DNA of 64,000 nucleotides from Candidatus Cloacimonadota bacterium (GTDB taxonomy: Bacteria > Cloacimonadota > Cloacimonadia > Cloacimonadales > GCA-2742885). The stretch covers positions 9,043 through 73,042 of the forward strand of contig PDOO01000029.1 of assembly GCA_002742885.1 (NCBI GenBank), given 5' to 3'. The stretch's first letter is position 1; every line of letters begins with the position of its first letter. The translations under genes were made by a program, and so were the position numbers. Below are positions 26,883 through 43,912 of the stretch, one piece after another. Under the pieces are notes generated by a model. The model worked only from the letters and a program-made list of their open reading frames with translations. It made no database searches and had not been told where the DNA came from.

Positions 26883-28538
26883 TTATTTCATAAGCAACAT
26901 TTTGCCGACGACGTTTTTATTGCCGTTGACGAGCCGGTAATAATAAATACCGCTTGCTGCCGCATTATTGTTTTTGTCTTTTCCGTTCCATCTTATTTCG
27001 TAACGCCCTTTCTCCATATTTTGATCAACCAAGGTACAAACTTTTTGACCTTTTACATTGAATATTGAAAGATTGACTTTTCCCGATGAGGAAACATTAT
27101 AAACAATTGATGTTTCCGGGTTTAAAGGATTGGGATAATTGCTTAATTCATTCGGAGTGATTGCTTCAAATGAGTCTTCTTCGTTATCGGTTGTCAAACC
27201 CGTAAATGTTATGTAATCGATTTTTAAGGCGAATCCGTTATTCCCTGCCGGCATATCATGTTGTATCGCCACTCTTATATCTTCTCCGGAATAAGATGAA
27301 AGCGAGTAAGTATATTTTTCGTAATTGAAACCGGTTGTGTCTCTTCCGATTATTTGATAAGCCGCCAAGTTATTCGGGTCTTCTTGGGCAGAAACCGATA
27401 CATTAAAACATTCTTGATTGTAATATTGATCCTGACCCGAAGCGTAAAAACTTATTGATGCTTCTTCTTCAACATGAACTCTCGGAGAGATCAGCCAATT
27501 GTTTACGGCAAAAGCAATTTGATTTACGTTGTCGTAAGAATATGAAACGGCGCAACGATTTCCGTCATAAGCGTCCATTCCGGCAGTGGATAAAGTCCAG
27601 TTAAAATCGTTTTGAGCAACATTTATTCTGAGCCAATTATAAAATCCCAATTCAAAACTCATGCCGTCTCTCGGAATAATGCTGATAGGATCCGTGTAAT
27701 CGGAAACCTCGTCTCCGTAAATTTGAGCAACTTTATAAGAGTAAGTTGTTTCAATCGTTACGTTTGAATCCATATAATAAAGTCCGGCATAATTATCTGC
27801 AATGATTTCCTCGTTGCGTTGAATGACAAATTCTTCCGATTCTCTGTAATCGTAATTTATTTCCGGAATTTCATTTCGCATTTGATTTTCATTGCTTGTC
27901 GCATTTTCGGAATCAATGTAAGGCCTTGCCGCAAGCAGACGTTCTCCCGGCGTTTCAACAACCAAGGTGATGAGAAAATCTCCTTTATCGACAGGATCGT
28001 TTATTGAATAGTCGTTGTTTAAAATATAAGAACTTCCGTCATAATCTTGATCAATTGCGATAACCGGTTTAGCATCGGTGTTTATTCCTGATTCAGGTCT
28101 TATGAAAACACCGAGCACTCCTGAAGCCGGAGTGGCTTCCGCCGGCACTTCAATTTGGTATTCCCAATTATTTGAGGTTGTTGTTTTGTAATTTTCCAGT
28201 ATGTAAACAGGTTGATGAGATGCCCAGTCAAGAAAAACGATGTCGCATGAATCTCCGGGATTGCTCCAGGAAGTGAAAAATTCCACAGAATAAACATTTG
28301 CTGACGGCATGGATGTCAAATCAAAGAGAGAACCGTAAAGTTTTTGTTTATTTTGATAGTATCCGTCATCCGGTATTCCGTCATGCAATTTAATTTCTTG
28401 AGTTCCTTCCGGTATGGCAGGTCCCCAATTTAAGTGGCAGGAACCTTGATCGGAAACAACCGAAAAGTGGCGGGGAGAGTTTAATGCCGATAAGATGCAA
28501 ACAGTCGACATTAAAAATACAGATAAAAATTTTTTCAT
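26883..28538 (-). CDS. secreted T9SS cargo protein (choice-of-anchor-J-like domain)
   Basis: It has a signal peptide and a C-terminal sorting domain 'YPNPLNPETSIVYNV...LSIFNVKGQKV...SGIYYYRL...KMLLMK'. The mid-region 'NNWLISPRV...ISFYASGQD' resembles choice-of-anchor J / cleaved-adhesin folds. Confidence 0.7.
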   Translation of the reverse strand: MKKFLSVFLMSTVCILSALNSPRHFSVVSDQGSCHLNWGPAIPEGTQEIKLHDGIPDDGYYQNKQKLYGSLFDLTSMPSANVYSVEFFTSWSNPGDSCDIVFLDWASHQPVYILENYKTTTSNNWEYQIEVPAEATPASGVLGVFIRPESGINTDAKPVIAIDQDYDGSSYILNNDYSINDPVDKGDFLITLVVETPGERLLAARPYIDSENATSNENQMRNEIPEINYDYRESEEFVIQRNEEIIADNYAGLYYMDSNVTIETTYSYKVAQIYGDEVSDYTDPISIIPRDGMSFELGFYNWLRINVAQNDFNWTLSTAGMDAYDGNRCAVSYSYDNVNQIAFAVNNWLISPRVHVEEEASISFYASGQDQYYNQECFNVSVSAQEDPNNLAAYQIIGRDTTGFNYEKYTYSLSSYSGEDIRVAIQHDMPAGNNGFALKIDYITFTGLTTDNEEDSFEAITPNELSNYPNPLNPETSIVYNVSSSGKVNLSIFNVKGQKVCTLVDQNMEKGRYEIRWNGKDKNNNAAASGIYYYRLVNGNKNVVGKMLLMK

Positions 28539-28676: not shown

Positions 28677-29333
28677 TTATTTGTTTTCCCGCTTATGCCA
28701 AATAAACGAAAAAACAATCGGAATCAGCGTAAAAATAACGATAAAAACCGATAAAGCCGTATTGACAACAGGATTGAAATTTTTCCCGAAAGACATTAAT
28801 ATCATTAGGATTCCCGATGCGAAAAAATTTATTCCTCCCAAGCGATGAGTTTTGCGCCAAACCGTTTCCGATGATAAAGTCCACGGAGTACGAATCCCCA
28901 AAAAGAAATTTGACGGTACTTTGGGAAGCAAGTTACCGATAAACATAAAAAGAAATCCTGTCAGCATAAAAATCGGATTGATTTCGGAATTTATTCTTCC
29001 TGTTGCAATTAACAGCATAAATATGTGTATCATCGCAAAGAAAATTATCATAATCAAATTAAAATCAGGCAATAGTTTTGCAAAACGATCTTCCGATTTT
29101 TTATAGCGAACCGAGTAAAGCGGCATAAAAAACATCATCGCCGAAATAAGCAAATTTATTGCCGGGAACAAAAATATTCCTAATTGTTTTCCTGCGTAAC
29201 CGTCAACCTCGCCTTTAAAATTCCAATGTATCGGGATTTTACCGTCCGCCGGGATTTGCGATGCAATCGCTAAACTTATTATTACTTCAATGATGATGAT
29301 AACGAGTGCTGCCGTAAATTTCTTATTTTTCAT
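28677..29333 (-). CDS. SdpI/YhfL-family membrane protein (DUF1648 + SdpI domains)
   Basis: 'IPIHWNFKGEVDGYAGK' is DUF1648-like and 'NFFLGIRTPWTLSSETVWRKTHRLGG' is an SdpI-family motif. It has about 6 TM segments, and its start overlaps the ArsR gene stop. Confidence 0.8.
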   Translation of the reverse strand: MKNKKFTAALVIIIIEVIISLAIASQIPADGKIPIHWNFKGEVDGYAGKQLGIFLFPAINLLISAMMFFMPLYSVRYKKSEDRFAKLLPDFNLIMIIFFAMIHIFMLLIATGRINSEINPIFMLTGFLFMFIGNLLPKVPSNFFLGIRTPWTLSSETVWRKTHRLGGINFFASGILMILMSFGKNFNPVVNTALSVFIVIFTLIPIVFSFIWHKRENK

Positions 29334-29613
29334 TTTTTCCCTCCTTGTTATCTCCGAAAAGTTCCCAAACGGAACTTATAAATCCTTCTATTACGGAAGT
29401 ATTTAAAAAATAATTAACGTATTGTCCTTTTTTCTCGGATCCGATCAAATCGGCATTTTTCAGAATTTTAAGATGTTCGCTGATTGAAGGCTTGGAAATG
29501 GAAAAATGTTCCGCAATTTTTCCTGCCGTCATATCATTTTCTTTCAGCAATTGCAGAATTTTTCTTCGATTTTTATCTGCCAATGCTTTAAAAACCTTAT
29601 CATTTATAAACAA
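29323..29613 (-). CDS. ArsR/SdpR-family transcriptional repressor
   Basis: 'FKALADKNRRKILQLLKENDMTAGKIAEHFSISKPSISEHLKILKNADLI' is a winged HTH of the ArsR family. It uses a TTG start after GGAGA. Confidence 0.85.
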   Translation of the reverse strand: MFINDKVFKALADKNRRKILQLLKENDMTAGKIAEHFSISKPSISEHLKILKNADLIGSEKKGQYVNYFLNTSVIEGFISSVWELFGDNKEGKNEK

Positions 29614-29751: not shown

Positions 29752-29949
29752 TTACGACTCCTGATTTTCGTCTTTGGACCGGATTTGCTTTATCTCAATT
29801 TTTACAAGCGAATAAAGAGCAAAGACTTCCAAAAGAACTCCGATTGCGATTGCTTTACCCAATTTGTAATAAAGGATTGTATTGCCCGCGCAAAGTACCA
29901 GAAATGCCAAAAAGCTGAGCAATTTGTATAATCTCTTTTTGCTTTTCAT
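29752..29949 (-). CDS. small two-TM membrane protein
   Basis: 65 aa. There is a strong SD (GGAGG, 7-nt spacer) and two hydrophobic helices. It has the same orientation as, and lies just upstream of, the SdpR/SdpI-like pair. Confidence 0.55.
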   Translation of the reverse strand: MKSKKRLYKLLSFLAFLVLCAGNTILYYKLGKAIAIGVLLEVFALYSLVKIEIKQIRSKDENQES

Positions 29950-30238
29950 AACAAAACCTCCGTTAAAATTTTATTGAGGTTAAAATTAGCACTAAAGTTC
30001 ATGAGGTACTAAAAGTAGACTTAGAGTAAGAGCTAAGGTGCCACCCCAACAAATTGTAAGCATATGAATAATTGCACTTATTAAAAAATTAACTGCATAC
30101 CATCCCATCTCTCTACTATTTTTATGAAACATTTTATATGCTTCCATAGTTATTATGCCAATAATGGATGGGTTTGCAGCTGCAATTCATGGAAAATATA
30201 TTTTTTATTGAAAACACAATATAATATATAAGTGTTCA

Positions 30239-31360
30239 TTAGGTTACACTACCAAATATATTAATAAAATTCTTTATATCGTTTTTTTTGTGTTCAGAAG
30301 TTACGGTTACTCTCAGAATCGCTTTTTTCAGGGGAACCGAGGGATAACGGGATGCAAGCGCATGGAATCCTTTTTCGAACAGTCGGTTTGATATTTGAAC
30401 CGCTTTTTTTTCTTCGCCGATAAAAATCGGAACTATATGGGAGTTTCCGCCGTAATTTATCTTATTTTTTTGCAGGAGATTTTTAAAAAATTCGGTATTT
30501 TCGCGAAGCCGTTTTCTTTTGTCGTCCGCATCGGCGATGATGTCCAGAATTTCTCCGGCTGTTACGATTACCGCTTCCGGCAACATGGTGGTATAAATAA
30601 TTTCCCGGCATTTGTTCAATAAATATTCTTTGATTATTTCAGGAAGCAGTATAAAAGCTCCGAATAATCCGAAAGCTTTTCCCATTGTTCCGACGACAAT
30701 ATCGCCTTTGTTTATGCCTTTCCCGGCTTCTCCGTAAGCTCCGACGGAATGAGCTTCGTCAACAACGGTAAAGATATTATTCTTTTTTGCCGTCTCAAAA
30801 AAATTATCGTCGAGAAAATCTCCGTCCATGCTGTAAAGAGCTTCCGCAACGGCAACGGAAATATGTGCATTTGCTTTGATTCTTCTTTCCATATGGCTGA
30901 TTTTATTGTGATTAAAACCGATTGATTTGGCGCCTGAAGCTTTTATGCCGGTAACAATGCTGGCGTGGATGCGCTTATCGTACAAAACCGTGTCATCTTC
31001 GGAAAACAGGCTGGAAAACAAGCCGGAATTTGCCTGAAAACCGGAATTAAAAAAAAGACAATCCTCAAAACCGAAATGTCGGGCAAACTTCATCTCAACA
31101 TCTTTTACCGATTGCCGACCGGCGGAAACCAGCCGAGAAGAAGATGCTGATGAGCCGTATTTTAAAATATTGTTTGCCAAAATTTCTTTTACCTGATTTG
31201 ATCCGGCAATTCCCAGAATGTCATTGGATGAAAAATTTATGATTTTTTTGTTTTTCCTAAAAAGAAATATGCCCTCGGCTTTATCGAAAATTCTCGGTTC
31301 CCGAAAAAGGTTTTCTTCTTTTAATAATCTGATGCGTTCCGCTGTTTTTTTTGTAAGCAC
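30239..31360 (-). CDS. bioF: 8-amino-7-oxononanoate synthase
   Basis: Class-II aminotransferase fold with 'DEAHSVGAYGEAGKG' and the PLP-lysine motif 'GTMGKAFG'. It is the last gene of the bio operon. Confidence 0.85.
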   Translation of the reverse strand: MLTKKTAERIRLLKEENLFREPRIFDKAEGIFLFRKNKKIINFSSNDILGIAGSNQVKEILANNILKYGSSASSSRLVSAGRQSVKDVEMKFARHFGFEDCLFFNSGFQANSGLFSSLFSEDDTVLYDKRIHASIVTGIKASGAKSIGFNHNKISHMERRIKANAHISVAVAEALYSMDGDFLDDNFFETAKKNNIFTVVDEAHSVGAYGEAGKGINKGDIVVGTMGKAFGLFGAFILLPEIIKEYLLNKCREIIYTTMLPEAVIVTAGEILDIIADADDKRKRLRENTEFFKNLLQKNKINYGGNSHIVPIFIGEEKKAVQISNRLFEKGFHALASRYPSVPLKKAILRVTVTSEHKKNDIKNFINIFGSVT

Positions 31361-31782
31361 TCAAATACCTTTTTATAATATTTTTGATTTATTTTATTGA
31401 TTTTATCGGATGAAGCGATTTTCAGAAGACCCGTTATTTCTTTTCCGTTTAAAGAGGTCATAACTTTATAAACGCCGACCGATTCCGATTGATTCAGCAA
31501 TTCTGCTTTTACTGTATAATTTCGGTTTTCGGGCAATTCCTCATCAAAATTAAAACTGTCGATGCTGAGCAAAAAATGATGTTTTTCGAAATTATGAAGT
31601 CGGCGTTGATGATAAGTTGCGGTTTGAGCAAATGTTTCCAACAAAAGAAAGTGTTCCGGTTTATCCTGAAAATATTTTTCGGTAATCAGAAATTTATCCG
31701 AAAACAAGGAAATTTTATCCGGCATCAAGTAGTCTTTCAGACCTGTATTGACAACTAATATTTTTTTATTATCAAAGCGCAA
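31321..31782 (-). CDS. hotdog-fold-like protein (FabZ-like 'LLLETFAQ' block, no catalytic His)
   Basis: 153 aa. 'YFQDKPEHFLLLETFAQTA' resembles the FabZ 'HFxxxPxxPGxLxxEAxAQ' block but has Tyr at the His position and retains the Glu. It is translationally coupled to both the KS gene and bioF. Confidence 0.45.
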   Translation of the reverse strand: MRFDNKKILVVNTGLKDYLMPDKISLFSDKFLITEKYFQDKPEHFLLLETFAQTATYHQRRLHNFEKHHFLLSIDSFNFDEELPENRNYTVKAELLNQSESVGVYKVMTSLNGKEITGLLKIASSDKINKINQKYYKKVFECLQKKQRNASDY

Positions 31783-32948
31783 TTTTGTCCTCCGAAACCG
31801 AAATTTTCCAATAAAATACGGTTTAAAGCCGCTTTTCGGGATTTTTTTGCAAAATCAATTTCCTCATCGAGAGAATGAACAAGATTGCGGACGGCAGGAA
31901 TTTTACAATTATTCATAAAGTCAATCATAACGGCTGTTTCCATTGCTCCGCAGGCTGCCGAAAGATGCCCCGTCCAAGATTTCAACGCCGTAACGGGCGG
32001 TGAGGATTTACCGAATATTTGCTTGATTACTTTTGCTTCCGTTTCATCGTTTTTCAAAGTTCCCGTGCCGTGAGCATGGATTAAATCTATTTCCTCCGGT
32101 TTTAAATCTGCTTCCATCAAAGCATTTTTAACGGCTTCGGCGGCAAATTTTCCGTCCGGTCTCGGGTCGGTCATGCTGTATCCGTCCGCCGTGAATCCGC
32201 AACCGACAATTTCTGCTAAAATTTTTGCGTTTCGTTTTTTTGCCGATTCCAATTCTTCCAACAATAAAAATCCTCCTCCTTCGCCCGGAATAAATCCGAA
32301 TCTTTGATTTGAAAAAGAAGCATAATTTTTATCGGGATTTTCGCCTTTAAAGAGAGCGGATGCTTTGTTGTAAGCCGTTATTCCGCCGAGATTTAATCTG
32401 GAATCTCCGCCGCCCGTTAAAATTATGTCCGCTCCGTTATTTTTGATTTCCCGATAAGCCGAAGCAACCGCATGAAGCGAAGCGGCGCAAGCGGAAGTTA
32501 CGGTTCTGTTTTCTCCGTGCAAATCAAATTGTTTGGCAATACAGGCTCCCAAAGTATTGGGTAAAAATTTCAGAATCCAAAGAGCCTGCAAACCGTCCGT
32601 TCCGAAAACGGCATTGTTTATTTCGGGAAAGGATTCCGTAATATCGAGATTGGGACCGGCTCCGATAAAGACCGCGCAATTGTCGGGTAATTCGGTAAAA
32701 CCGCTTTTTTTGATACATTCGGCAGCGGCGGCAAATCCGAGCTTTGCTCCCCGATTCAAATAACGGGCATCTTTGCATCGTTTAACGTAATCTTTAAGAT
32801 TAAAATTTTCTATCGGTAAAATCGGAGTGTCTTTAAACGTTTTAAATTGATAATCGTTCTTTTCGATATTTTCCGAAAATTCGGTGAAATTATTTCCCAA
32901 AGCCGTGATATAAGCGTTTGAGGTTATCGCTACTCGTCTTTTTTTCAT
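31755..32948 (-). CDS. beta-ketoacyl-ACP synthase, KAS I/II (Cys-His-His) type
   Basis: It has the active-site 'VTSACAASLHAV', 'HAHGTGT', 'GHLSAACG' and a C-terminal 'NFGFGGQN'. Confidence 0.9.
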   Translation of the reverse strand: MKKRRVAITSNAYITALGNNFTEFSENIEKNDYQFKTFKDTPILPIENFNLKDYVKRCKDARYLNRGAKLGFAAAAECIKKSGFTELPDNCAVFIGAGPNLDITESFPEINNAVFGTDGLQALWILKFLPNTLGACIAKQFDLHGENRTVTSACAASLHAVASAYREIKNNGADIILTGGGDSRLNLGGITAYNKASALFKGENPDKNYASFSNQRFGFIPGEGGGFLLLEELESAKKRNAKILAEIVGCGFTADGYSMTDPRPDGKFAAEAVKNALMEADLKPEEIDLIHAHGTGTLKNDETEAKVIKQIFGKSSPPVTALKSWTGHLSAACGAMETAVMIDFMNNCKIPAVRNLVHSLDEEIDFAKKSRKAALNRILLENFGFGGQNCALIIKKY

Positions 32949-32957
32949 ATTGTCATC

Positions 32958-33557
32958 TTAAAATTTGCAAAATTCTTCGACCGGCAGTCTGTGAAGAGGC
33001 TCCGGTTTTTCGTCCGGATAACCTATGGCGATAAAACCTTTCAGGTTAAAGTCAAAATCCGTATTTTTATATTCCCTCAAAAAAAACATCGGAGCGGTAT
33101 AAATGCAAAGTCCCAAATCTTCTTCGACGCAAAGCAAAGAAAAATTTTGCAGAGCGATTCCCAAACCGATGTCAACCGGTGTTTCCGTATCCTTGAAAAG
33201 CCCTTTTGAGGCGAGTAATTGCCCCAGACTTTTTCTGTCCGCCGTGCCGAAAGCCAAAGAAAGGGGAGCATCGGCAAAAGCTTTTCCGAAGCGGTAATAA
33301 GTTTTTATTTTATAAATGTCTCTTTCCGATAAATCCGGGCAGGTAAGAATGTCTTCTTTTTCCTTTTCCATGTGAGAAAGCAACTCTTTTTTATCGTCCT
33401 CGGTCAAGACCGTAAATCGGCAGGATTGGCAATTTGACGGAGAAGCGTAAAATCTGGCGGCATCGGCTATTTTTCGTAAAATTTCTTCGGGAACGGATTC
33501 ATTTTTAAATTTTCGGCAGCTTCGTCTTTTTTTTATCAGTGAATATAAATCTTTCAT
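32958..33557 (-). CDS. nitroreductase-family flavoprotein
   Basis: 'LIKKRRSCRKFKNESVPEE' is the typical N-terminal RxSxRxF motif. The length is 199 aa, and the start overlaps the ACP stop (ATGA). Confidence 0.8.
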   Translation of the reverse strand: MKDLYSLIKKRRSCRKFKNESVPEEILRKIADAARFYASPSNCQSCRFTVLTEDDKKELLSHMEKEKEDILTCPDLSERDIYKIKTYYRFGKAFADAPLSLAFGTADRKSLGQLLASKGLFKDTETPVDIGLGIALQNFSLLCVEEDLGLCIYTAPMFFLREYKNTDFDFNLKGFIAIGYPDEKPEPLHRLPVEEFCKF

Positions 33558-33919
33558 GATTTTTCCTTTTCATATTCGGCGTAAGCAATAACATCTTTTA
33601 TTTTGATGACGGGAGCGTTCGGCAAATCTTCGATAATTTCTTTGATTCTTTCACTTGAAAGATGAGGGTAAGATTCGCTTAAAACTTCTTCCGGATTTTT
33701 ATTTTCATTTTCAGCTTCTTTCATAATCAATCTCAAATCACGCAAAAAAAGTTTGCTGTCGCTTACATGTATTCCGAATTCCGCATTCAGAGAAATTCCG
33801 ATTTCCAGCAGGTCAATTGATTCAGCTTCCAAATCTCTGACGAGATAATCTTCTTCCGATATATTTTCCGCTTCCAAATCAAGCAATTCGGCGGTAATTT
33901 CTTTAATTTTTTTATTCAT
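33554..33919 (-). CDS. acyl-carrier-protein-like protein with C-terminal extension
   Basis: 'RDLEAESIDLLEIGISLNAEFGI' fits the ACP helix II phosphopantetheine site (D/E-S-[LI]-D). At 121 aa it is about 40 aa longer than canonical ACP. Confidence 0.65.
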   Translation of the reverse strand: MNKKIKEITAELLDLEAENISEEDYLVRDLEAESIDLLEIGISLNAEFGIHVSDSKLFLRDLRLIMKEAENENKNPEEVLSESYPHLSSERIKEIIEDLPNAPVIKIKDVIAYAEYEKEKS

Positions 33920-33925
33920 GGTTCC

Positions 33926-34633
33926 TCACTTGGCAATATTCATTCCGCCGTCAATTGTTATGACCGAGCCGTTAAACGAAGCGGAATTTTCATTTATTAT
34001 CATATTGATTGTGTTGACGATACTTTCGGCGGAAACGGGATTTTTGTCCGGTATTTTATTTAAGGCTTCCGGATTTTCGGCAAGATAATCTTTTCCTCTG
34101 CCGAGATTTAAATAACCGGGACGAATTACGGTACAGGATATTCCTTTGCGGGCAAGCTCAATGCCGACCGCTTTGTAAATCTGCTCACAGGCAAGTTTGG
34201 CGGAAGAATAAAAACCCTGACCGGGATTAATTTTACTTGCGGCGCTTGAAGAAATATAAATCATTTTACCGTGTTTTTGTCTCAACATTTTCCCGGCGAT
34301 AAGTTTAATAAGAGCAATGCGGTTGATTACATTTGTTTTGTAAAAATCCGATATTTTGTCATAATCGGCGGCAGCAACCAGAGATTCGTAATTTCCCTGA
34401 GCAAAATCCGCAACCGCATCAATTTGTTTTACGGAAGCCAATATTTCGGTAAACGATTCGGGAGCGGAAAAATCCGTTTTTATCGGTATGAGTTTAGGAT
34501 TTTTGATATTTTCAAGTCGCATAAGACTTTCTTTGCTTCGGTAACCTGCCCAAAAATTGTAATCCGCCGATCCGATAAAACTCAAACCGAGTTCGCAACC
34601 TGCCCCGAGAACCAAAATATTTTTATTTTGCAT
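33926..34633 (-). CDS. SDR-family oxidoreductase (FabG-like ketoreductase)
   Basis: Rossmann 'ILVLGAGCELG', catalytic 'SSSAA' Ser and 'YSSAKLACE' (YxxxK). Confidence 0.8.
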   Translation of the reverse strand: MQNKNILVLGAGCELGLSFIGSADYNFWAGYRSKESLMRLENIKNPKLIPIKTDFSAPESFTEILASVKQIDAVADFAQGNYESLVAAADYDKISDFYKTNVINRIALIKLIAGKMLRQKHGKMIYISSSAASKINPGQGFYSSAKLACEQIYKAVGIELARKGISCTVIRPGYLNLGRGKDYLAENPEALNKIPDKNPVSAESIVNTINMIINENSASFNGSVITIDGGMNIAK

Positions 34634-34913
34634 AGAATACTCCGCTTACCGCTTTTTTATCGAATTGTTCCAGAATAATTTTTATTTTTTTGCCTTCGCA
34701 AACCCATTTTAAAAGGCATTTATCCGGTTTTACGAAAACTCCGAAGCGAAATTTTTCCGCTTTCGAGATGCGACAATTTTCCTCTTTTTCGATTATTTCT
34801 TTGCATTTGCCGATAATCAAAGCTCCGGGAACAACCGGGTTTCCGGGAAAGTGGAAATCATATATTTTATCTGATTTATCGAAAATCAAATCGATTTTTT
34901 TGTAACTTTGCAT
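34623..34913 (-). CDS. mini hotdog protein with FabZ-type His motif
   Basis: 96 aa. 'HFPGNPVVPGALIIGKC' matches the FabZ 'HFPxxPVMPGVLxxE' motif, except that the catalytic Glu position is Gly. Confidence 0.6.
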   Translation of the reverse strand: MQSYKKIDLIFDKSDKIYDFHFPGNPVVPGALIIGKCKEIIEKEENCRISKAEKFRFGVFVKPDKCLLKWVCEGKKIKIILEQFDKKAVSGVFYAK

Positions 34914-36244
34914 ATCGCATTTACGGTTACGTTCAACAACGTCTCAAGTTCCCGTTCGTTGATAACCAAAGGCGGCATTAAAATAATGACGTTGCCGAGA
35001 GGACGAATTATTGCGCCGTTTTTACGCGCTTCCAAGGTAACTTGATGTCCGATTCTCAAAGCCGGTTCAAATTCTTCTTTTGATGCTTTGTCTTTTACGA
35101 GTTCTGCTCCGACCATCATTCCGCATTGTCTTATATCTCCGACATTGGGGTGATCAGCTAATTTCTTCATGGCTTTTGCAATTTGTTCGGCGCGTAATTT
35201 TACATTTTCCAAAACGTTATTTTTTCGGAATAATTCCAGGTTGGCGAGAGCTGCCGCGCAAGCGACCGGATTTCCGGTGAAAGTGTGTCCGTGAAAAAAA
35301 GTTCGGAAATCTTCGTATTTTCCCAAGAAACCCCGATAAATTTTTTCCGTAACAAAGGTGGCGGCAAGCGGAAGATAACCTGCCGAAATTCCTTTGGCAA
35401 CCGCCATTAAATCGGGTTTTACGTTTTCCTGTTCGCAGGCAAATAATGTTCCCGTTTTCCCGAATCCGACCGCAACTTCGTCGCAAATCATCAAAATATC
35501 GTATTTTGAGCAAAGTTCTCTTACTTTGGCAAGGAATCCTTTCGGATGAACGATTAATCCGCCGGCTCCCTGCACAAGCGGTTCTATGACGAGAGCTCCG
35601 ATTTCTTCGGCTCCGTTTTTCATTATTTCTTCCAATTGTTCGGAACAAAATTTAAGCGTTTCCTCTTCCGACATTCCGCCGTTAAGACGATAGGAAAAAG
35701 GAGAATCCGCCTTGACGGTCTCAAAAATCAAACCTCCGTAAACTTTGTGAAAAAGATCAATTCCGCCTGCGCTTACGGAACCTATCGTGTCGCCGTGATA
35801 AGCGTTTTTGAAAGAGATAAATTTTTTCTTTTCGGGTTTCCCGTTTTGTTGATTGTATTGATAAGCAATTTTTAAAGCAATTTCAACGGCTTCGGAACCG
35901 CTGTCGGAATAAAAAACTTTGGTCAGATTTTCCGGCGTAATTTCAATTAATTTTTCAGCCAATTCTATTGCCGGAACGTTTCCGACTCCCAACATGGTGG
36001 TGTGGGATATTTTATCGATTTGCTCTTTCATGGCTTTATTTAATTCAGGATGATTGTGTCCGTGAACGTTGGTCCAGATGGAAGCAACGCCGTCTATATA
36101 TTTTTTCCCGTTTACGTCTGTCAAAAATACGCCTTCGCCTGATTCTATAACAGGATATTCTTCTTCGACGAAACCCTGCATTTGCGAAAACGGATACCAA
36201 AGATTTTTATCGGATTTTTCTTTAAGCAATTTATATCTTTTCAT
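34886..36244 (-). CDS. bioA: adenosylmethionine-8-amino-7-oxononanoate aminotransferase
   Basis: Class-III aminotransferase with 'YSDSGSEAVEIALKIA' and 'CDEVAVGFGKTGTLFA'. 452 aa. Confidence 0.9.
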   Translation of the reverse strand: MKRYKLLKEKSDKNLWYPFSQMQGFVEEEYPVIESGEGVFLTDVNGKKYIDGVASIWTNVHGHNHPELNKAMKEQIDKISHTTMLGVGNVPAIELAEKLIEITPENLTKVFYSDSGSEAVEIALKIAYQYNQQNGKPEKKKFISFKNAYHGDTIGSVSAGGIDLFHKVYGGLIFETVKADSPFSYRLNGGMSEEETLKFCSEQLEEIMKNGAEEIGALVIEPLVQGAGGLIVHPKGFLAKVRELCSKYDILMICDEVAVGFGKTGTLFACEQENVKPDLMAVAKGISAGYLPLAATFVTEKIYRGFLGKYEDFRTFFHGHTFTGNPVACAAALANLELFRKNNVLENVKLRAEQIAKAMKKLADHPNVGDIRQCGMMVGAELVKDKASKEEFEPALRIGHQVTLEARKNGAIIRPLGNVIILMPPLVINERELETLLNVTVNAICKVTKKSI

Positions 36245-37214
36245 AATTAAGCTCCAGTTTTTTTATCATTTTATTGTCGTTTGATATTGCTCTGCCGCTT
36301 GTGGTCAAATAGTTTCCGATCATGATGCCGTTTGCTCCCGCTCTGAATAATTCTTCCTGTTTTTCTCCCAAAATAAGTTCTCTTCCTCCGGCTATGCCGA
36401 TGGGAGTTTGGGGATTTATGAGTCTGAAAAGAGCAATTGTCTTTAAGGCTTCTTCGGCAGACAGAAGTTTTTGATTTTCCAATCTCGTTCCTTTAATCGG
36501 ATTAAGAAAGTTAAGAGGAATGGAATCAACTTTCATTTTTTTTAAGGTAAAAGCAAGTTCCGTTCGCTGTTTCCAAGATTCTCCCAAACCGATGATTCCT
36601 CCGCAACAAATTTTCATGCCTGCAGCCGAGGCAATTTCAATTGTTTTGTAATCCTCCTCCAAAGTATGCGTAGAGCATATTTCCGAGAAATAACTCGGAG
36701 CAGTTTCCAAATTATGATGAAAACGTTCCACGCCCGCTTCAACCAGCATTTTCGCTTTTTCTTCCGTCAACATTCCCAATGATCCGCAGAGGGCAAGATC
36801 GGTTTTTTCTTTTAAAGCGCGAGCAGCTTTGCAAATAATTTCCAGTTCCTTTTCCGTAACCGAATGTCCGGCGGTAACAAAAGAATATTGAGTTGCGTTT
36901 TGTTCGGCGTTTCGTAATCCGCTTTCAACTAATTTATCATAAGACACTAAAGGATAAATTTTTACTCCCGTTTCATGATGAACGGATTGAGCGCAAAAAG
37001 CGCAGTTTTCGGGACAGTGTCCGGATTTTGCATTTAAAATACTGCAAGTAAATATTTTGTCTGAATGGAACTTTTCCCGTAAAAAATTCGTTGCAGGAGC
37101 CAAATCAGCCCAAGTTATTTTATCGTCTTCGGCAATTTTTATCGCCGTTTCTTCGGAAATATTGCCGTTTTCAATTAAATCATCTTCTTCCGCATAAGGA
37201 ATATTAAATTTCAT
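36231..37214 (-). CDS. bioB: biotin synthase (radical SAM)
   Basis: 'CPENCAFCAQS' is the CxxxCxxC cluster. 'YSFVTAG' and 'CCGGIIGLGE' are BioB blocks. Confidence 0.9.
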   Translation of the reverse strand: MKFNIPYAEEDDLIENGNISEETAIKIAEDDKITWADLAPATNFLREKFHSDKIFTCSILNAKSGHCPENCAFCAQSVHHETGVKIYPLVSYDKLVESGLRNAEQNATQYSFVTAGHSVTEKELEIICKAARALKEKTDLALCGSLGMLTEEKAKMLVEAGVERFHHNLETAPSYFSEICSTHTLEEDYKTIEIASAAGMKICCGGIIGLGESWKQRTELAFTLKKMKVDSIPLNFLNPIKGTRLENQKLLSAEEALKTIALFRLINPQTPIGIAGGRELILGEKQEELFRAGANGIMIGNYLTTSGRAISNDNKMIKKLELNYEKI

Positions 37215-37695
37215 TTCAACCTCTGTAATTTAATTACGAAGATTACAAATTTCAAGCAGTCCGTAAGCTGTCAAATACAATACCGATAAACTTAGCTCGC
37301 GATGATCTGAATCAGGCAGCAGAATAAATTATCGTTAAAATTTTATTCTCTGAAAAGCCGTAAATTCAATTCTGAGGGGCGCAACTTATGTTGCTCGGTA
37401 AATTTTAGTTTCTCGAAGCAAATGCCGGAAATATGCGGTTTAATAATTCACTTCCCGGATTTCGTCAACTTTTGTTGTCTTGTTGAAAATCATGTTGCGA
37501 TTCAGTTAAAATATATGTTTTAAAAAATTATATTCTTATATGCAAATATGTTATAATCTTATTCTTTTTTTATTTTTCGCCTTTGGCATAATTTTTGTTG
37601 GAAAGGAAGGGCATTGCGAAATAATATTTCGGAATTTTAAGATGTTTATTTTGCTTGATAAAAAACAGTGATTTTAACCATGTAAGGAGGAATAA

Positions 37696-39035: not shown

Positions 39036-40385
39036 ATGAAAAAAGCAATATTATACATAAATCAGTTTTTTGCGGGAATAGGCGGAGAAGATAAAGCCGA
39101 TCATGCTCCGGAAATTCGCGAAGGATTAGTCGGTCCCGCCCTTGCTCTCAATGATGTTCTTGATGCTGAAATTACTCATACCGTAGTTTGCGGCGATAAC
39201 TTTATGGGTTCAAAAACGGAAGAAGCAATAGATACGATTATCGGATTTCTCGACGGTAAGGACTTTGACATTTTCTTTGCAGGTCCCGCTTTCAGAGCAG
39301 GACGTTACGGAGTTGCCTGCGGGCATATTTGCAAAGCTGTTAAGGAAAAATTCAATGTTCCGGTTATTACATCCATGAACGAAGAAAATCCGGGTGTTGA
39401 AATGTTCAAAGCTGAAATGCCTGTTTTTAAAGGCGGTAAAAGCGCTGCCAAGATGCGCGCAGACGTCAAAAAAATGGCGAAATACGCCAATAAGATTTTG
39501 AATGGCGAAGAAACTCTCGGAGCTGATGCAGAAGGTTATTTCCCTCGCGGCATCAGACAGCAGGTTTGGTTGAAAGGAGAAGAAGCTGTTTCTGCCGCAA
39601 AACGCGGCGTTGACATGCTTATCAAAAAAATGAGCGGTCTTCCTTATCAAACCGAATTAGTTATTCCGAAAGTTGATATGGTTCCGATTGCTGCTCCGGT
39701 TAAGGATCTTTCCAAAGCCAGAATCGCAATTGTTACCAGCGGCGGTATTGTCCCGGTTGATAATCCTGACAAAATTCAGTCTGCTTCTGCTACTCGCTGG
39801 GGAAAATACGATATTTCCATGTTAGACAGATTGCCGGCAGCCGGAGACGATTCTCCCGAATCAAATCCGCATAAAGCTTACAAAACAATTCATGCCGGTT
39901 ATGATCCGGCGGCGGCAGATACCGATCCCAACAGAGTTGTTCCTTTGGATGCCCTTCGCGCTTATCAAAAAGAAGGAAAAATCGGCTCGGTTGCCAAATA
40001 TTTCTATTCAACCGTAGGAACCGGAACTACTCAGGCTGAAGCTGCCAGAATGGGAAATGAGATAGTTGAACATCTCCGCGAAGATAATACGGATGCTGTT
40101 ATAATGACATCTACGTGAGGCACTTGCACACGTTGCGGCGCAACGATGCTTAAAGAAATTGAAAGAGCCGGTTTCCCGATTGTCCAAATGGCAAATCTTA
40201 TTCCTGTTTCCGTTTCAGTCGGAGCCAATAAAATTGTTCCGACCATTTCCATTCCTTATCCGTTGGGAGACCCGAATACTCCTGCCGAAGATCAATGGAA
40301 ATTGCGTTATCACAGAGTCGGAGTCGCTCTTGATGCTTTGACTGCCGACATAAAAGAACAAACAATATTTAAAGTTAAAATCTAA
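39036..40385 (+). CDS. glycine/sarcosine/betaine reductase component B selenoprotein (GrdB/F/H type), Sec at codon 361
   Basis: Track ORFs 39036..40118 and 40146..40385 are in frame across TGA 40116-40118. The junction reads 'IMTST-U-GTCTRCGATM', the GrdB-family UxxCxxC selenocysteine site. Confidence 0.9.
40131..40145 (+). promoter_or_regulatory. SECIS-like hairpin after the grdB-type TGA
   Basis: CGUUGC-GGC-GCAACG has a 6-bp stem and starts 12 nt after the UGA. Confidence 0.5.
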
Positions 40386-42182: not shown

Positions 42183-43385
42183 ATGATGAATGAAATCTAT
42201 GATCTTATAATAATCGGCGGCGGACCGGGAGGATTATCTGCCGGTGTTTATGCGGCTCGCTCTAAAATGAAGACTTTATGTCTGGAAGAGAAAAGAAGAG
42301 TCGGCGGTCAATGCGCAACTACTACGGAAATGGAAAATTATCCGGGTATTCTTGAGTCAACGGGACCGGGTTTGATGGATAATTTCCGAGCTCACTGCGA
42401 AAAATTCGGAGTTGAGTTCAGAAGAGGAAAAGTCGATTCTTTGGAGATTGCGGAAGACGGATTCATTAAAACGGTCAATACTCAAAAAGGCGAAAAAATT
42501 TACGGTAAATCCATTATCATTTCAACAGGAGCCGAGGCTAGAGTTTTAGGTATTCCGGGCGAAAGAGAATTACGAGGACGCGGTGTTTCTTATTGCGCAA
42601 CTTGCGATGCCGATTTTTTTGAAGACCTTGATATAATTGTTGTGGGAAGCGGAAATACGGCAGTTGAAGAATCTGTGTTTCTGACTAAATTCGTGAATAA
42701 AATAACAATGGTTATCCTTCATGAAGAAGGAAAAATGGATGCCGATAAAACTGCTCAAGAACAATGTCTGGCGAATGAAAAAATCGATTATATCTGGAAT
42801 TCCACGGTTGAAGAAATAGTCGGAGATGAGCTGGTTACCGGAGTCAGGGTTAAAAATATTAAAACCGGAGAAATCAGTGAAGTCGAATGCGACGGAGTTT
42901 TTATGTTTGTGGGAACGGTTCCAAAAACTGATTTTGTAAAAGATTTAATTGAACTCACTCCTCATAAATATATAAAAACAACCGAAAAAATGGAAACAAA
43001 TATTCCCGGTATTTTTGCCGCAGGAGATGTTCGGGATAAATATCTTCGTCAAGTCGTAACAGCAGCCGGAGACGGCGCAATTGCCGCAGTAGCCGCAGAA
43101 AAATACGTTGAAAACGAAGAAATGTGGCAAAAAAATGTTTTGAAAGCCGAGAAACCGGTTGTCGTTGCTTTTTGGAGTCCTGTAAATAAAGAAAGTATGG
43201 CTGTTTTGACGAAATTGGAAGTCGCAGAAAGAGATGAATACGATCTTGTAAAAATAGATGCCTACAAAGATTCCATGTTGGCAGATCGATACGGAGTAAA
43301 AGAACTTCCCGCAGTTCTCAGATTTGAATCCGGTAAATTGATTAAGAAATACGATCTTGAAAAAGAACTGGACGAAATAATTTGA
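42183..43385 (+). CDS. trxB: thioredoxin-disulfide reductase fused to a Cys-less thioredoxin-fold C-terminal domain
   Basis: 'DLIIIGGGPGGLSAG', redox 'CATCDADFF', 'VVGSGNTAVEES' and 'GIFAAGDV' identify TrxB. The C-terminal roughly 90 aa, 'PVVVAFWSPVNKESMAVL...ELPAVLRFESGKL', is Trx-like but has no CxxC. Confidence 0.88.
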   Translation: MMNEIYDLIIIGGGPGGLSAGVYAARSKMKTLCLEEKRRVGGQCATTTEMENYPGILESTGPGLMDNFRAHCEKFGVEFRRGKVDSLEIAEDGFIKTVNTQKGEKIYGKSIIISTGAEARVLGIPGERELRGRGVSYCATCDADFFEDLDIIVVGSGNTAVEESVFLTKFVNKITMVILHEEGKMDADKTAQEQCLANEKIDYIWNSTVEEIVGDELVTGVRVKNIKTGEISEVECDGVFMFVGTVPKTDFVKDLIELTPHKYIKTTEKMETNIPGIFAAGDVRDKYLRQVVTAAGDGAIAAVAAEKYVENEEMWQKNVLKAEKPVVVAFWSPVNKESMAVLTKLEVAERDEYDLVKIDAYKDSMLADRYGVKELPAVLRFESGKLIKKYDLEKELDEII

Positions 43386-43436
43386 TAAATATTTAACGCA
43401 TAAAACAATTAATACTTTATAACAAAGGAGTCATAA

Positions 43437-43889
43437 ATGTTAAAAGGAAAAAAAGTCATCGCTATAGGCGACAGAGACGGAATTCCCGGTCCGGCTATTG
43501 AAGAATGCGCAAAATCAGCCGGCGCGGAAGTAATATTTGCTTCAACCGAATGCTTTGTCTGAACGGCTGCCGGAGCTATGGATCTGGAGATCCAAAAAAG
43601 AGTTAAAGAATTGGCTGAAAAAGAAGGAAAAGAAAACCTGGTAGTATTGCTCGGAGGAGCCGAAGCCGAGGCTTCCGGATTGGCTGCCGAAACAGTTCTT
43701 ACCGGCGATCCGACTTTTGCGGGACCTCTTTCCGGAGTTGCATTGGGACTTGACGTTTATCACATCACCGAACAGGAAATTAAAGATGAAGTAAATGCCG
43801 AAGTTTATGAAGAACAATGCGGAATGATGGAAATGGTTCTTGATGTTGATGAAATTAAAAGCGAAATGGATGAAATACGTAACGCTTAG
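43437..43889 (+). CDS. grdA: glycine/sarcosine/betaine reductase complex selenoprotein A, Sec at codon 42
   Basis: I hand-translated from ATG 43437: '[42 protein letters not shown](TGA 43560)-TAAGAMDLE...', in frame with track ORF 43578..43889. 'CFVUTAAGAMD' is the GrdA active-site signature. Confidence 0.95.
43580..43593 (+). promoter_or_regulatory. SECIS-like hairpin after grdA TGA
   Basis: GGAUC-UGGA-GAUCC starts 17 nt after the UGA. A weaker GCU-GCCGG-AGC stem precedes it. Confidence 0.45.
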
Positions 43890-43912
43890 TCAATGCTTAA
43901 AAAATATTTGTA

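What the first reader, a model, noticed from the sequence alone, without database searches (positions are those of the whole stretch)
30239..37214. Biotin operon with an embedded private KS/KR/DH/ACP/flavoprotein module, a possible uncharacterised pimelate-arm pathway
Nine minus-strand genes are packed as one translationally coupled unit; junctions overlap by 4 to 40 nt or are separated by fewer than 10 nt. The order is bioB, bioA, a 96-aa FabZ-like hotdog, an SDR ketoreductase, a 121-aa ACP-like carrier, a nitroreductase-fold flavoprotein, a Cys-His-His ketosynthase, a 153-aa hotdog-like protein, and bioF. The ring-assembly enzymes therefore bracket a complete-looking mini fatty-acid-synthase. 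None of the known pimelate routes is visible in the window: no BioC/BioH, BioW, BioI or BioZ (KAS III type). bioD is also absent from the operon. The simplest reading is a dedicated carrier-protein-bound pathway that builds the pimeloyl thioester and hands it to BioF. From memory, FAS-like genes inside bio clusters were flagged by comparative genomics in some sulfate reducers, but I do not know of a resolved mechanism and cannot verify this here.
Basis: partly seen in the sequence, partly recalled or inferred. Interest (0 to 1): 0.82.

Follow-up and report, generated by a model that had tools for sequence, protein, structure and literature searches.

The report
Biotin operon with private pimelate synthase
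This is a biotin-synthesis operon from an uncultured Cloacimonadota bacterium that carries its own small fatty-acid-synthase-like gene set, the same kind of cluster already shown genetically in Desulfovibrio to supply the pimelate part of biotin, so it is a new member of a known system whose chemistry is still unsolved.

Summary
Nine tightly packed minus-strand genes at 30239..37214 encode BioB, BioA, a short FabZ-like protein, an SDR reductase, an acyl carrier protein, a nitroreductase-fold flavoprotein, a Cys-His-His ketosynthase, a second hot-dog protein and a BioF-like synthase.

This is the 'extended biotin operon' predicted in Desulfovibrio in 2004 (PMC545781). In 2023 transposon fitness data showed it is needed for growth without biotin (PMC10102598).

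The same gene order recurs in 33 other species-level genomes: Syntrophales, Desulfobacterales, Desulfovibrionales, one Elusimicrobia MAG and a second Cloacimonadota MAG.

Three points are new here:
- The host is a Cloacimonadota MAG.
- The nitroreductase gene sits inside the operon, as reported for Syntrophobacter and Desulfobacter.
- The two hot-dog proteins carry complementary halves of the FabZ active site. The 96-aa family keeps the His motif. The 153-aa family keeps the Glu helix and lacks the His segment. This predicts an obligate heterodimeric dehydratase.

bioD is missing from the operon and from the window. It directly follows bioF (within 420 nt) in 21 of the related loci.

No BioC, BioH, BioW, BioI or BioZ gene is in the window. 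Only about 74 kb of the genome could be examined.

The biochemistry remains inferred.

The parts
36231..37214 (-). bioB, biotin synthase (327 aa), first gene of the operon
   Evidence: TIGR00433 scores 389.6 bits against a cutoff of 225, with Radical_SAM and BATS domains. It is 47-56% identical to the bioB genes of related clusters.
34886..36244 (-). bioA, adenosylmethionine-8-amino-7-oxononanoate transaminase (452 aa)
   Evidence: TIGR00508 scores 550.7 bits against a cutoff of 405. It overlaps bioB by 14 nt.
34623..34913 (-). DH96: truncated FabZ-like hot-dog protein carrying the catalytic-His motif HFPGxPVVPG (H21) but not the FabZ Glu. 96 aa from the ATG at 34913, or 88 aa from the gene-caller's alternative start.
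   Evidence: The family profile hits FabZ structures at E 3e-8, and hhalign against FabZ-like proteins gives 98.3%. H21 is invariant in 22 sequences. The column that holds the catalytic Glu in FabZ is H/Q/E/D/G/S/R across 23 sequences. A weak ApeI-like Pfam hit is on record.
33926..34633 (-). SDR-family 3-oxoacyl-ACP reductase candidate (235 aa)
   Evidence: adh_short and adh_short_C2 hits, and 3oxo_ACP_reduc at E 7e-19, below the equivalog cutoff. The Ser and YxxxK motif (SS...GQGxYaaxK) is conserved in 23 orthologues.
33554..33919 (-). Specialised acyl carrier protein (121 aa) with a conserved insertion of about 40 aa before the last helix
   Evidence: PP-binding hit over residues 4-58 only. 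The ESIDLLE motif, with the phosphopantetheine serine, is invariant in 26 sequences, and the C-terminal yPxL...R..ei......gPxlkv.Dl..Y region is conserved. ACP equivalog cutoffs are not reached.
32958..33557 (-). Nitroreductase-fold flavoprotein (199 aa), the candidate enoyl-ACP reductase of the module. Its start overlaps the ACP stop by 4 nt.
   Evidence: PF00881 scores 76.5 bits; the best NCBIfam hits are the FbiB C-terminal domain and BluB, all below cutoff. A homologue (tblastn hit over at least half the query) lies at this position, between ACP and KS, in 18 related loci and upstream of birA-KS in L082. Of the 60 best hits tabulated from a 1.84-billion-protein search (list starting at the second-ranked non-self hit), 30 are 40-77% identical to those in-cluster proteins.
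31755..32948 (-). FabF/FabB-type elongating ketosynthase (397 aa), Cys154-His293-His328
   Evidence: ketoacyl-synt N and C domains. C154, H293, H328, K323 and the GFGGQN loop are invariant in 18 sequences and conserved in 32. fabF scores 270 bits against a cutoff of 494. It is 45-52% identical to Desulfobacterota in-cluster KS, whereas the FabF-like KS genes at loci without bio genes are only 30-39% identical.
31321..31782 (-). HD153: hot-dog protein carrying the FabZ catalytic-Glu helix (E49-x-x-A52-Q53) plus invariant H58 and R60. The FabZ His-motif segment is deleted.
   Evidence: E49, A52, Q53, H58 and R60 are invariant in 25 sequences. hhalign against FabZ-like proteins gives 96.9%, with E49 aligned on the FabZ Glu and a 14-residue gap opposite DHFPxFPVMPG. 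FabZ-type PDB chains are the top five hits, best E 0.008. The motif ExxAQxxxxHxR lies between KS and bioF (or downstream of KS) in 32 of the 33 related loci that carry the motif.
30239..31360 (-). bioF-like 8-amino-7-oxononanoate synthase (373 aa), last gene. It overlaps HD153 by 40 nt.
   Evidence: TIGR00858 is the best hit at 289.5 bits, below the cutoff of 426, with Aminotran_1_2. The DEAHxxG and GTxGKaxG (PLP lysine) motifs are conserved in 30 orthologues. It is 39-48% identical to cluster bioF genes.
37215..37695 (-). 481-nt region upstream of bioF's operon start (bioB), shared with the divergent glycine-reductase genes; presumed promoter region
   Evidence: Several sigma-70-like matches are present, not clearly above shuffled expectation. 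There is no BirA operator of the TTGTAAACC-N14-16-GGTTTACAA type; the best match is 12 of 18 positions. No Rfam family matches.

Best explanation
The operon is a Cloacimonadota copy of the Desulfovibrio-type extended biotin operon. Its inner six genes form a private type II synthase that works on its own carrier protein and makes pimeloyl-ACP without methyl-ester protection.

Proposed sequence of steps:
1. The special ACP (121 aa) is loaded with malonate by a housekeeping transacylase that is not in the operon. [Inferred]
2. The Cys-His-His ketosynthase takes a dicarboxylic primer with a free omega-carboxylate (malonyl, then glutaryl) and condenses it with malonyl-ACP. [Inferred]
3. The SDR reduces the 3-oxo group. 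[Inferred]
4. A heterodimer of the 96-aa and 153-aa hot-dog proteins dehydrates the product. The 96-aa protein supplies the catalytic His and the 153-aa protein supplies the catalytic Glu, giving one composite FabZ-type site. [Inferred]
5. The nitroreductase-fold flavoprotein reduces the enoyl double bond. [Inferred]
6. Two rounds yield pimeloyl-ACP. The BioF-like enzyme condenses it with alanine, and BioA and BioB carry out later ring steps. [Inferred]
7. The BioD step must be encoded elsewhere. [Inferred]

Shown here: the gene identities, the catalytic motifs, the conservation of the whole arrangement and the complementary active-site pattern.

Shown by others: the requirement of the orthologous Desulfovibrio genes for growth without biotin.

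Every chemical step above, the primer identity and the role of the flavoprotein are inferences.
For: - Gene content and order match the published description of DVU2558-DVU2565. Those genes, together with a nitroreductase, were specifically needed for growth without biotin (PMC10102598). The pathway was predicted earlier in PMC545781.
- Thirty-three other species-level genomes carry the KS flanked by the same partners. The run bioA-DH96-SDR-ACP-NTR-KS-HD153-bioF is intact in L006, L007, L010, L011, L013, L019, L021 and L032.
- The KS has the C154/H293/H328 triad.
- The ACP has an invariant ESIDLLE serine.
- The SDR has Ser and YxxxK.
- Split dehydratase: H21 is invariant in the DH96 family, while its Glu-equivalent column varies. 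E49, A52 and Q53 are invariant in the HD153 family, which has a deletion where FabZ carries the His motif.
- Both small-protein families are FabZ homologues by profile comparison.
- Both motifs are present in every locus whose contig covers both positions, except L024, where the only motif match lies inside the KS coordinates.
- In FabZ the catalytic His and Glu of one tunnel come from different monomers (PMC5143422).
- The nitroreductase is translationally coupled to the ACP (4-nt overlap). It is conserved at that position in the non-Desulfovibrionales loci. It is the only operon member without an assigned step, and enoyl reduction is the only missing step (the same argument is made in PMC10102598).
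Against: - No experiment exists for this organism or for any enzyme of the pathway.
- bioD is absent from the operon, from the window and from 9.8 kb beyond it, so the locus alone cannot make biotin.
- The operon contains no malonyl transacylase and no phosphopantetheinyl transferase.
- The enoyl-reductase role of the flavoprotein rests on elimination and position only. It belongs to no known enoyl-ACP reductase family.
- The heterodimer is inferred from motifs. Both AlphaFold models were unusable (pLDDT 44.6 and 45.5), and no multimer prediction was possible.
- A few DH96 orthologues have Glu or Asp at the FabZ Glu position, so homodimeric activity is not excluded in those.
- Canonical pimelate genes elsewhere in the genome cannot be excluded.
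Confidence: 0.62

Rival explanations
1. The module has the same overall role, but only one elongation round occurs. The ketosynthase takes a glutaryl thioester made by amino-acid or aromatic-acid catabolism and extends it once with malonyl-ACP to 3-oxopimeloyl-ACP. The SDR, dehydratase and reductase then finish it. This is the logic of the BioZ route, carried out by a different class of ketosynthase.
For: The taxa that carry the cluster are amino-acid fermenters or syntrophs in which glutaryl-CoA is a common intermediate (established knowledge). The window itself encodes glycine/betaine reductase genes, typical of amino-acid fermentation. Nothing in the sequence fixes the number of rounds.
Against: Cys-His-His ketosynthases normally take acyl-ACP primers, not acyl-CoA primers (established knowledge of the family). 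The operon has no CoA-to-ACP transferase. The authors of the Desulfovibrio study favour elongation from malonyl-ACP.
Confidence: 0.15
2. The nitroreductase-fold flavoprotein is not the enoyl reductase. Instead it feeds electrons to the radical-SAM enzyme BioB, or does another redox job in ring assembly. A housekeeping enoyl-ACP reductase completes the private elongation cycle.
For: BioB needs a low-potential electron donor (established knowledge). In D. vulgaris the required nitroreductase DVU1220 lies outside the cluster and is predicted to bind an iron-sulfur cluster as well as FMN. The same paper lists a promiscuous FAS reductase as an alternative. The Desulfovibrionales clusters lack an in-cluster nitroreductase.
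Against: In the window and in 18 related loci the gene lies between ACP and KS, not next to bioB, and here it overlaps the ACP stop codon by 4 nt. The in-cluster proteins are about 200 aa with no cysteine cluster. The nearest NCBIfam models include the FbiB C-terminal domain, which to my knowledge reduces a C=C bond in dehydro-F420-0; that point is recalled and was not tested here.
Confidence: 0.18
3. HD153 is not half of a dehydratase. It is a hot-dog thioesterase or chain-length gate that acts on pimeloyl-ACP, and DH96 works with some other acid/base partner.
For: Many hot-dog thioesterases use a carboxylate on the central helix (established knowledge). HD153 has extra invariant H58 and R60 that FabZ lacks. 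HD153 always lies next to bioF, and in one metagenomic protein it is fused to the KS (P0065).
Against: Its best PDB and profile matches are FabZ-type dehydratases, with E49 aligned on the FabZ catalytic Glu. DH96 lacks a conserved acidic residue of its own, so it needs a partner. BioF enzymes use the thioester, so hydrolysis would waste the product (established knowledge).
Confidence: 0.12
4. The FAS-like genes are an unrelated lipid or polyketide module that merely sits inside the bio operon.
For: None of the module proteins reaches an equivalog cutoff for a named function.
Against: The module lies between bioA/bioB and bioF in every one of the 33 related genomes, across several phyla. The orthologous Desulfovibrio genes have biotin-specific fitness defects. 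KS homologues outside bio contexts are only 30-39% identical.
Confidence: 0.03

Closest known systems
Extended biotin operon of Desulfovibrio vulgaris Hildenborough, DVU2558-DVU2565 plus DVU1220 (Rodionov 2004, PMC545781; Trotter 2023, PMC10102598)
   Same: The order is the same: bioB, bioA, FabZ-like, 3-oxoacyl-ACP reductase, special ACP, KS, second FabZ-like ORF, bioF. A nitroreductase-like protein is involved in both. No bioC or bioH is present. In-cluster nitroreductases were already reported for Syntrophobacter and Desulfobacter. The Desulfovibrio and Halodesulfovibrio loci L026-L029 show the same synteny, with 36-41% KS identity.
   Different: The host phylum is Cloacimonadota; PMC10102598 reported only Desulfobacterota and Chrysiogenetes. 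The nitroreductase is inside the operon. bioD is missing, whereas DVU2565 follows bioF. No BirA operator or adjacent birA was found. The nearest sequence relatives are Syntrophales and Desulfobacterales, not Desulfovibrio.
E. coli BioC-BioH route (methyl-ester disguise, housekeeping FAS II)
   Same: Two FAS-type elongation rounds from a malonyl thioester to a pimeloyl-ACP that BioF consumes. This is the proposed logic, and it is inferred.
   Different: The window has no methyltransferase of BioC type; the 258-aa methyltransferase at 56618-57394 gives only a 29-bit UbiG hit. It has no BioH-type esterase either. Dedicated KS, KR, DH and ACP replace the housekeeping enzymes.
BioZ route of alpha-proteobacteria (KAS III condensing glutaryl-CoA with malonyl-ACP)
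   Same: A dedicated ketosynthase makes a dicarboxylic 3-oxoacyl-ACP with a free omega-carboxylate.
   Different: The KS here is the Cys-His-His elongating type, not the KAS III Cys-His-Asn type. It comes with its own ACP, KR, DH and flavoprotein.
FabZ homodimer, and two-part dehydratases such as the double hot-dog DH domains of PKS/FAS I and the paired ApeI/ApeP of aryl-polyene clusters
   Same: All have the hot-dog fold. The FabZ active site is built from His of one subunit and Glu of the other (PMC5143422). DH96 has a weak ApeI-like Pfam hit on record. Two separate dehydratase genes in one cluster are also seen in aryl-polyene clusters (PMC8253772).
   Different: Here the two catalytic residues are on two separate small proteins encoded four genes apart, so only one of the two pseudo-symmetric sites can be active. 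The heterodimer itself has not been demonstrated.
Nitroreductase-superfamily flavoenzymes (FbiB C-terminal domain, BluB, iodotyrosine deiodinase)
   Same: The fold and the N-terminal RRSxR FMN-binding motif.
   Different: No equivalog cutoff is reached. The closest solved structure is an uncharacterised structural-genomics protein (3gfa, E 2e-16). An acyl-ACP substrate would be new for this fold, as far as I know.

Membership tests
Desulfovibrio-type extended biotin operon | FAS-like genes (KS, KR, two FabZ-like, ACP) bracketed by bioB/bioA and bioF in one transcription unit | tested here: met
   The order is identical to that described for DVU2558-DVU2565.
Desulfovibrio-type extended biotin operon | Module proteins are closest to the in-cluster proteins of other such operons, not to housekeeping FAS proteins | tested here: met
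   KS is 45-52% identical to in-cluster KS, whereas FabF-like KS genes at loci without bio genes are 30-39% identical. Of the 60 best tabulated nitroreductase hits from 1.84 billion representatives, 30 are 40-77% identical to in-cluster nitroreductases.
Desulfovibrio-type extended biotin operon | [quoted passage not shown] | tested here: met
   The gene lies between ACP and KS here and in 18 related loci. Function was not tested.
Desulfovibrio-type extended biotin operon | Genes required for growth without biotin | not testable with these tools
   Shown only for D. vulgaris by RB-TnSeq.
Desulfovibrio-type extended biotin operon | Genome lacks bioC/bioH, bioW, bioI and bioZ | tested here: inconclusive
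   None was found in the 64-kb window or in 9.8 kb beyond it. The rest of the MAG could not be searched.
FabF (beta-ketoacyl-ACP synthase II) | Cys-His-His catalytic triad and GFGG loop | tested here: met
   C154, H293, H328 and FGFGGQN are invariant.
FabF (beta-ketoacyl-ACP synthase II) | Reaches the NCBIfam equivalog score (TIGR03150, 493.75 bits) | tested here: not met
   It scores 270.4 bits. It is a FabF-type enzyme but not the housekeeping FabF.
FabZ (3-hydroxyacyl-ACP dehydratase) | Catalytic His (HFPxxPxxPG) and catalytic Glu (ExxAQ helix) in the same polypeptide | tested here: not met
   DH96 has the His only, and HD153 has the Glu only. Neither protein alone meets the definition, but together they do.
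FabZ (3-hydroxyacyl-ACP dehydratase) | Homology to the FabZ hot-dog fold | tested here: met
   hhalign gives 98.3% for DH96 and 96.9% for HD153. PDB profile hits to FabZ have E 3e-8 and E 0.008. Structure models were too poor to confirm the fold.
Acyl carrier protein | Phosphopantetheine-attachment serine at the start of helix II | tested here: met
   ESIDLLE is invariant in 26 sequences. PP-binding scores 28.7 bits against a cutoff of 20.8. ACP equivalog cutoffs are not reached (33.7 against 70.45), and a conserved insertion of about 40 aa is present.
BioF (8-amino-7-oxononanoate synthase) | Reaches the TIGR00858 equivalog score (426.45 bits) | tested here: not met
   It scores 289.5 bits, the best hit among alpha-oxoamine synthases. 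It is filed as BioF-like on the basis of context and orthology to cluster bioF genes.
BioF (8-amino-7-oxononanoate synthase) | PLP-binding lysine and DEAH motif | tested here: met
   VDEAHxxG and GTxGKaxG are conserved in 30 orthologues.
Known enoyl-ACP reductases (FabI, FabL, FabV, FabK) | SDR fold (FabI/L/V) or TIM-barrel flavoprotein fold (FabK) | tested here: not met
   The candidate has a nitroreductase fold (PF00881). The only SDR in the operon best matches ketoreductases. The reductase role is therefore an inference, not a family membership.
BioD (dethiobiotin synthetase) in the operon | A BioD gene next to bioF | tested here: not met
   No tblastn hit with six cluster BioD proteins. 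bioD starts within 420 nt of the bioF end in 21 related loci, lies 8 kb upstream in L018, and is absent from L082, L004, L012, L029 and L052 as well.

The most novel reading that the evidence does not exclude
The module contains two unrecognised enzyme solutions. The first is an obligate heterodimeric 'split FabZ', in which a 96-aa protein supplies the His and a 153-aa protein supplies the Glu of a single active site. The invariant H58/R60 of the larger subunit would hold the free omega-carboxylate. The second is a nitroreductase-fold FMN protein acting as a new class of enoyl-ACP reductase specific for dicarboxylic acyl chains on an ACP that carries a 40-residue insertion. Together these would explain how anaerobes make pimeloyl-ACP without the methyl-ester disguise.
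Probability: 0.3. Interest if true: 0.7.

Novelty: new member of a known kind. Interest (0 to 1): 0.4.

Why it matters
How the pimelate part of biotin is made differs between bacterial groups, and the route used by sulfate reducers and syntrophs is the last widespread one with no biochemistry. This locus shows that the route also occurs in Cloacimonadota and Elusimicrobia. It offers a compact nine-gene operon with the flavoprotein included, which makes a convenient construct for reconstitution. The complementary His/Glu pattern of the two small hot-dog proteins gives a specific, cheap hypothesis to test. The locus does not change the picture already drawn from Desulfovibrio genetics.

Tried and rejected
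- AlphaFold2 of HD153 (two-sequence alignment) and of DH96 (single sequence) gave pLDDT 44.6 and 45.5. The models were too poor for fold searches, so none was run.
- The word-indexed protein search found only one relative each for the nitroreductase and for HD153. Relatives had to be taken from the genome loci instead.
- Direct profile comparison of the two hot-dog families with each other found nothing (1.4% probability).
- A BirA operator search upstream of bioB found no credible site. The best match was 12 of 18 positions, and an AT-rich TGTAAT-N12-ATTACA palindrome at -35 from the start codon was judged possibly chance.
- An Rfam scan of the operon and its leader found nothing.
- The 258-aa methyltransferase at 56618-57394 was considered as a BioC candidate and rejected, because its only hit is UbiG at 29 bits.
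- The KAS III-like domain at 44001-45539 was considered as BioZ and rejected. It is glycine reductase component C beta (782 bits).
- Looking up flanking contigs to extend the search for bioD gave 9.8 kb more with no bioD. One look-up found nothing on record.
- Literature searches for later biochemical work on the Desulfovibrio pathway found none in the held library.
- I did not map KS family-specific polar residues (N100, D102, R184) onto the FabF acyl pocket, because no usable coordinates were available.

Full report
**What is there**

Between 30239 and 37214 the minus strand carries nine ORFs. Their junctions are overlaps of 14, 28, 11, 4, 28 and 40 nt and gaps of 6 and 9 nt. If the gene-caller's alternative start for the third gene is used, the 28-nt overlap becomes 4 nt.

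HMM scans assign the genes as follows:

| Coordinates | Assignment | Score |
|---|---|---|
| 36231-37214 | BioB | TIGR00433, 389.6 bits, cutoff 225 |
| 34886-36244 | BioA | TIGR00508, 550.7 bits, cutoff 405 |
| 34623-34913 | 96-aa FabA/FabZ-like | weak, E 5e-4 |
| 33926-34633 | SDR | adh_short families |
| 33554-33919 | 121-aa ACP | PP-binding, residues 4-58 only |
| 32958-33557 | nitroreductase-family flavoprotein | PF00881, 76.5 bits |
| 31755-32948 | KS | fabF best, 270 bits, cutoff 494 |
| 31321-31782 | 153-aa protein | no Pfam hit |
| 30239-31360 | alpha-oxoamine synthase | BioF best, 289.5 bits, cutoff 426 |

**Whose genome**

Identical proteins are on record as hypothetical proteins of a 'Candidatus Cloacimonadota bacterium' MAG, on a contig of 84,682 nt. 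The same genes are also found on contigs assembled from sequencing run SRR6011893.

The neighbours fit an amino-acid-fermenting anaerobe:
- glycine/betaine reductase genes with in-frame TGA selenocysteine codons;
- a BCCT transporter;
- a thioredoxin reductase-thioredoxin fusion;
- a tRNA selenouridine synthase.

**Is it conserved**

A scan of one genome per species with a KS alignment returned 80 loci. In 33 of them (L002-L033 and L052) tblastn with the nine window proteins finds the KS flanked by the same partners.

The run bioA-DH96-SDR-ACP-nitroreductase-KS-HD153-bioF is intact in L006, L007, L010, L011, L013, L019, L021 and L032. Every shorter contig is consistent with it.

By record title the hosts are:
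- Syntrophales, Syntrophobacteraceae, Desulfobacterales and Desulfoluna;
- Halodesulfovibrio and Desulfovibrio;
- one Elusimicrobia MAG;
- one other Cloacimonadota MAG;
- one bin labelled Methanosarcinaceae.

The remaining loci hold KS genes only 30-39% identical, with no bio genes. A JGI contig (L082) holds the closest relative, with a KS 72% identical.

The window KS is 47-49% identical to its closest Syntrophales, Syntrophaceae and other delta-proteobacterial copies, but only 45% identical to the other Cloacimonadota copy. This hints at lateral spread. I did not build a tree.

**What is known**

Rodionov et al. 2004 described an extended biotin operon in two Desulfovibrio species with ACP, KS, KR and dehydratase homologues. 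They proposed a new pimeloyl-CoA pathway (PMC545781).

Trotter et al. 2023 reported the following (PMC10102598):
- DVU2558-DVU2565 and the nitroreductase DVU1220 are specifically needed for growth without biotin.
- The cluster has two FabZ-like genes, one of them unannotated, between KS and bioF.
- Nitroreductase genes lie inside the cluster in Syntrophobacter fumaroxidans and Desulfobacter vibrioformis.
- The enoyl reductase remained open: either the nitroreductase or a housekeeping enzyme.

I found no later biochemical work in the held library. The window is thus a new member of this known system. Cloacimonadota and Elusimicrobia are not among the phyla listed in that paper.

**Catalytic equipment**

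- The KS family keeps C154, H293, H328, K323 and the GFGGQN loop.
- The SDR family keeps Ser and YxxxK.
- The ACP family keeps ESIDLLE. It also has a conserved stretch of about 40 residues inserted before a final helix that resembles ACP helix IV.
- The BioF-like family keeps DEAH and the GTxGK lysine.
- The nitroreductase keeps the N-terminal RRSxR motif. Its best solved relative is an uncharacterised protein (3gfa).
- In an exhaustive search of 1.84 billion representatives, only 64 proteins reach E 1e-10 against the nitroreductase. Of the 60 best hits tabulated, 30 are 40-77% identical to the in-cluster nitroreductases. It is therefore an orthologue of that subfamily.

**The two hot-dog proteins**

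This is the one point that goes beyond the literature I could read.

In 23 DH96 sequences the FabZ His motif HFPGxPVVPG is essentially invariant (H21). The column where FabZ has its catalytic Glu is H, Q, E, D, G, S or R.

In 25 HD153 sequences E49, A52, Q53, H58 and R60 are invariant. The ExxAQ stretch is the FabZ Glu helix.

Profile comparison with FabZ-like proteins taken from the unrelated control loci gives two results:
- For DH96 the probability is 98.3%, with H21 aligned on the FabZ His.
- For HD153 the probability is 96.9%, with E49 aligned on the FabZ Glu and a 14-residue gap exactly opposite DHFPxFPVMPG.

PDB profile searches agree.

The motif ExxAQxxxxHxR lies downstream of the KS in 32 of the 33 related loci in which it occurs. 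In L024 the only match lies inside the KS coordinates, and in L017 the contig ends at the KS. The His motif lies upstream of the SDR in every locus whose contig reaches that far. In 732 kb of control loci the Glu motif occurs once.

In FabZ each catalytic tunnel uses His from one monomer and Glu from the other (PMC5143422). The simplest reading is a DH96-HD153 heterodimer with one composite active site. This is an inference. Both AlphaFold models were unusable, and no multimer prediction was possible.

**bioD and other biotin genes**

bioD starts within 420 nt of the bioF end in 21 related loci, including the other Cloacimonadota MAG. It lies 8 kb upstream of bioF in L018.

In the window bioF is followed by about 625 nt holding only a short ORF. 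Six cluster BioD proteins give no tblastn hit anywhere in the window. A further 9.8 kb of contig has none either.

The closest relative L082 also lacks bioD after bioF. It has birA inserted between the nitroreductase and the KS.

No BirA operator was found upstream of bioB.

None of the other window ORFs scanned is BioC, BioH, BioW, BioI, BioZ, BioY or BirA. This says nothing about the rest of the genome.

**Mechanism**

I commit to the model of two elongation rounds on the private ACP from a malonyl primer with a free carboxylate. The SDR acts as ketoreductase, DH96-HD153 as dehydratase, and the flavoprotein as enoyl reductase. BioF takes pimeloyl-ACP.

My confidence differs by level:
- Role of the module in making the pimelate moiety: about 0.8. 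This rests on orthology to genes with biotin-specific phenotypes.
- Specific chemistry: about 0.45.

The rivals are:
- a single round from a glutaryl primer;
- the flavoprotein serving BioB rather than the elongation cycle;
- HD153 acting as a thioesterase.

An unrelated module is practically excluded by the conservation of context.

**Verdict**

The finding is real and correctly read, but it is not a new kind of system. Its value is as a compact, complete-looking example from a new phylum, and as the source of a testable split-dehydratase hypothesis.

Noticed in passing
window 39036-40385 (+) and about 43430-43900 (+): Glycine/betaine reductase selenoproteins with in-frame TGA codons. The GrdB-like ORF reads ...MTST*GTCTRCG..., and a GrdA-like ORF reads ...ECFV*TAAGAMD.... 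ORF finders split both at the TGA.
   Followed up: partly
window 61855-62904 (+): tRNA 2-selenouridine synthase MnmH (358 bits, above cutoff). Together with the selenoprotein genes it indicates selenium use in this organism.
   Followed up: no
window 42183-43385 (+): Thioredoxin reductase-like flavoprotein with a C-terminal thioredoxin domain, fused in one 400-aa ORF. It lies between the BCCT transporter and the GrdA/GrdC/GrdD genes (44001-46699).
   Followed up: no
P0065 (JGI metagenome protein, 549 aa): A natural fusion of the bio-type KS with the HD153-type hot-dog protein. The KS ends ...LVIKK and is followed directly by MERMTINTGL...ESLAQLGAFHVRH. It is a single sequence on a 3.1-kb contig, so a lost stop codon or a sequencing error is possible.
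   Followed up: partly
L082 679-1647: In the closest relative (KS 72% identical), a birA gene with an HTH domain sits inside the operon between the nitroreductase and the KS. The window has no birA and no recognisable BirA operator.
   Followed up: partly
L017 5821-9083: A contig binned as 'Methanosarcinaceae archaeon' carries the bacterial-type module (DH96, SDR, ACP, nitroreductase, KS; KS 46% identical). This is either a binning error or transfer to an archaeon.
   Followed up: no
window 33554-33919 (-): The carrier protein has a conserved insertion of about 40 residues (motif yPxLxxxRxxEI...GPxLKVxDLxxY) between the ACP core and its last helix. It is shared by all 26 orthologues and has no Pfam match.
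   Followed up: partly
window 29763-29960 (-), between bioF and the ArsR-like regulator gene at 29323-29613: A 65-aa ORF predicted by the gene caller, hydrophobic and with no family hit, occupies the place where bioD lies in most related clusters. A strong terminator-like hairpin follows at 29718-29678.
   Followed up: no
window 26883-28538 (-): A 551-aa secreted protein with FlgD_ig and a Por/T9SS C-terminal sorting domain. L082 also has a T9SS-tailed protein next to its bio operon.
   Followed up: no
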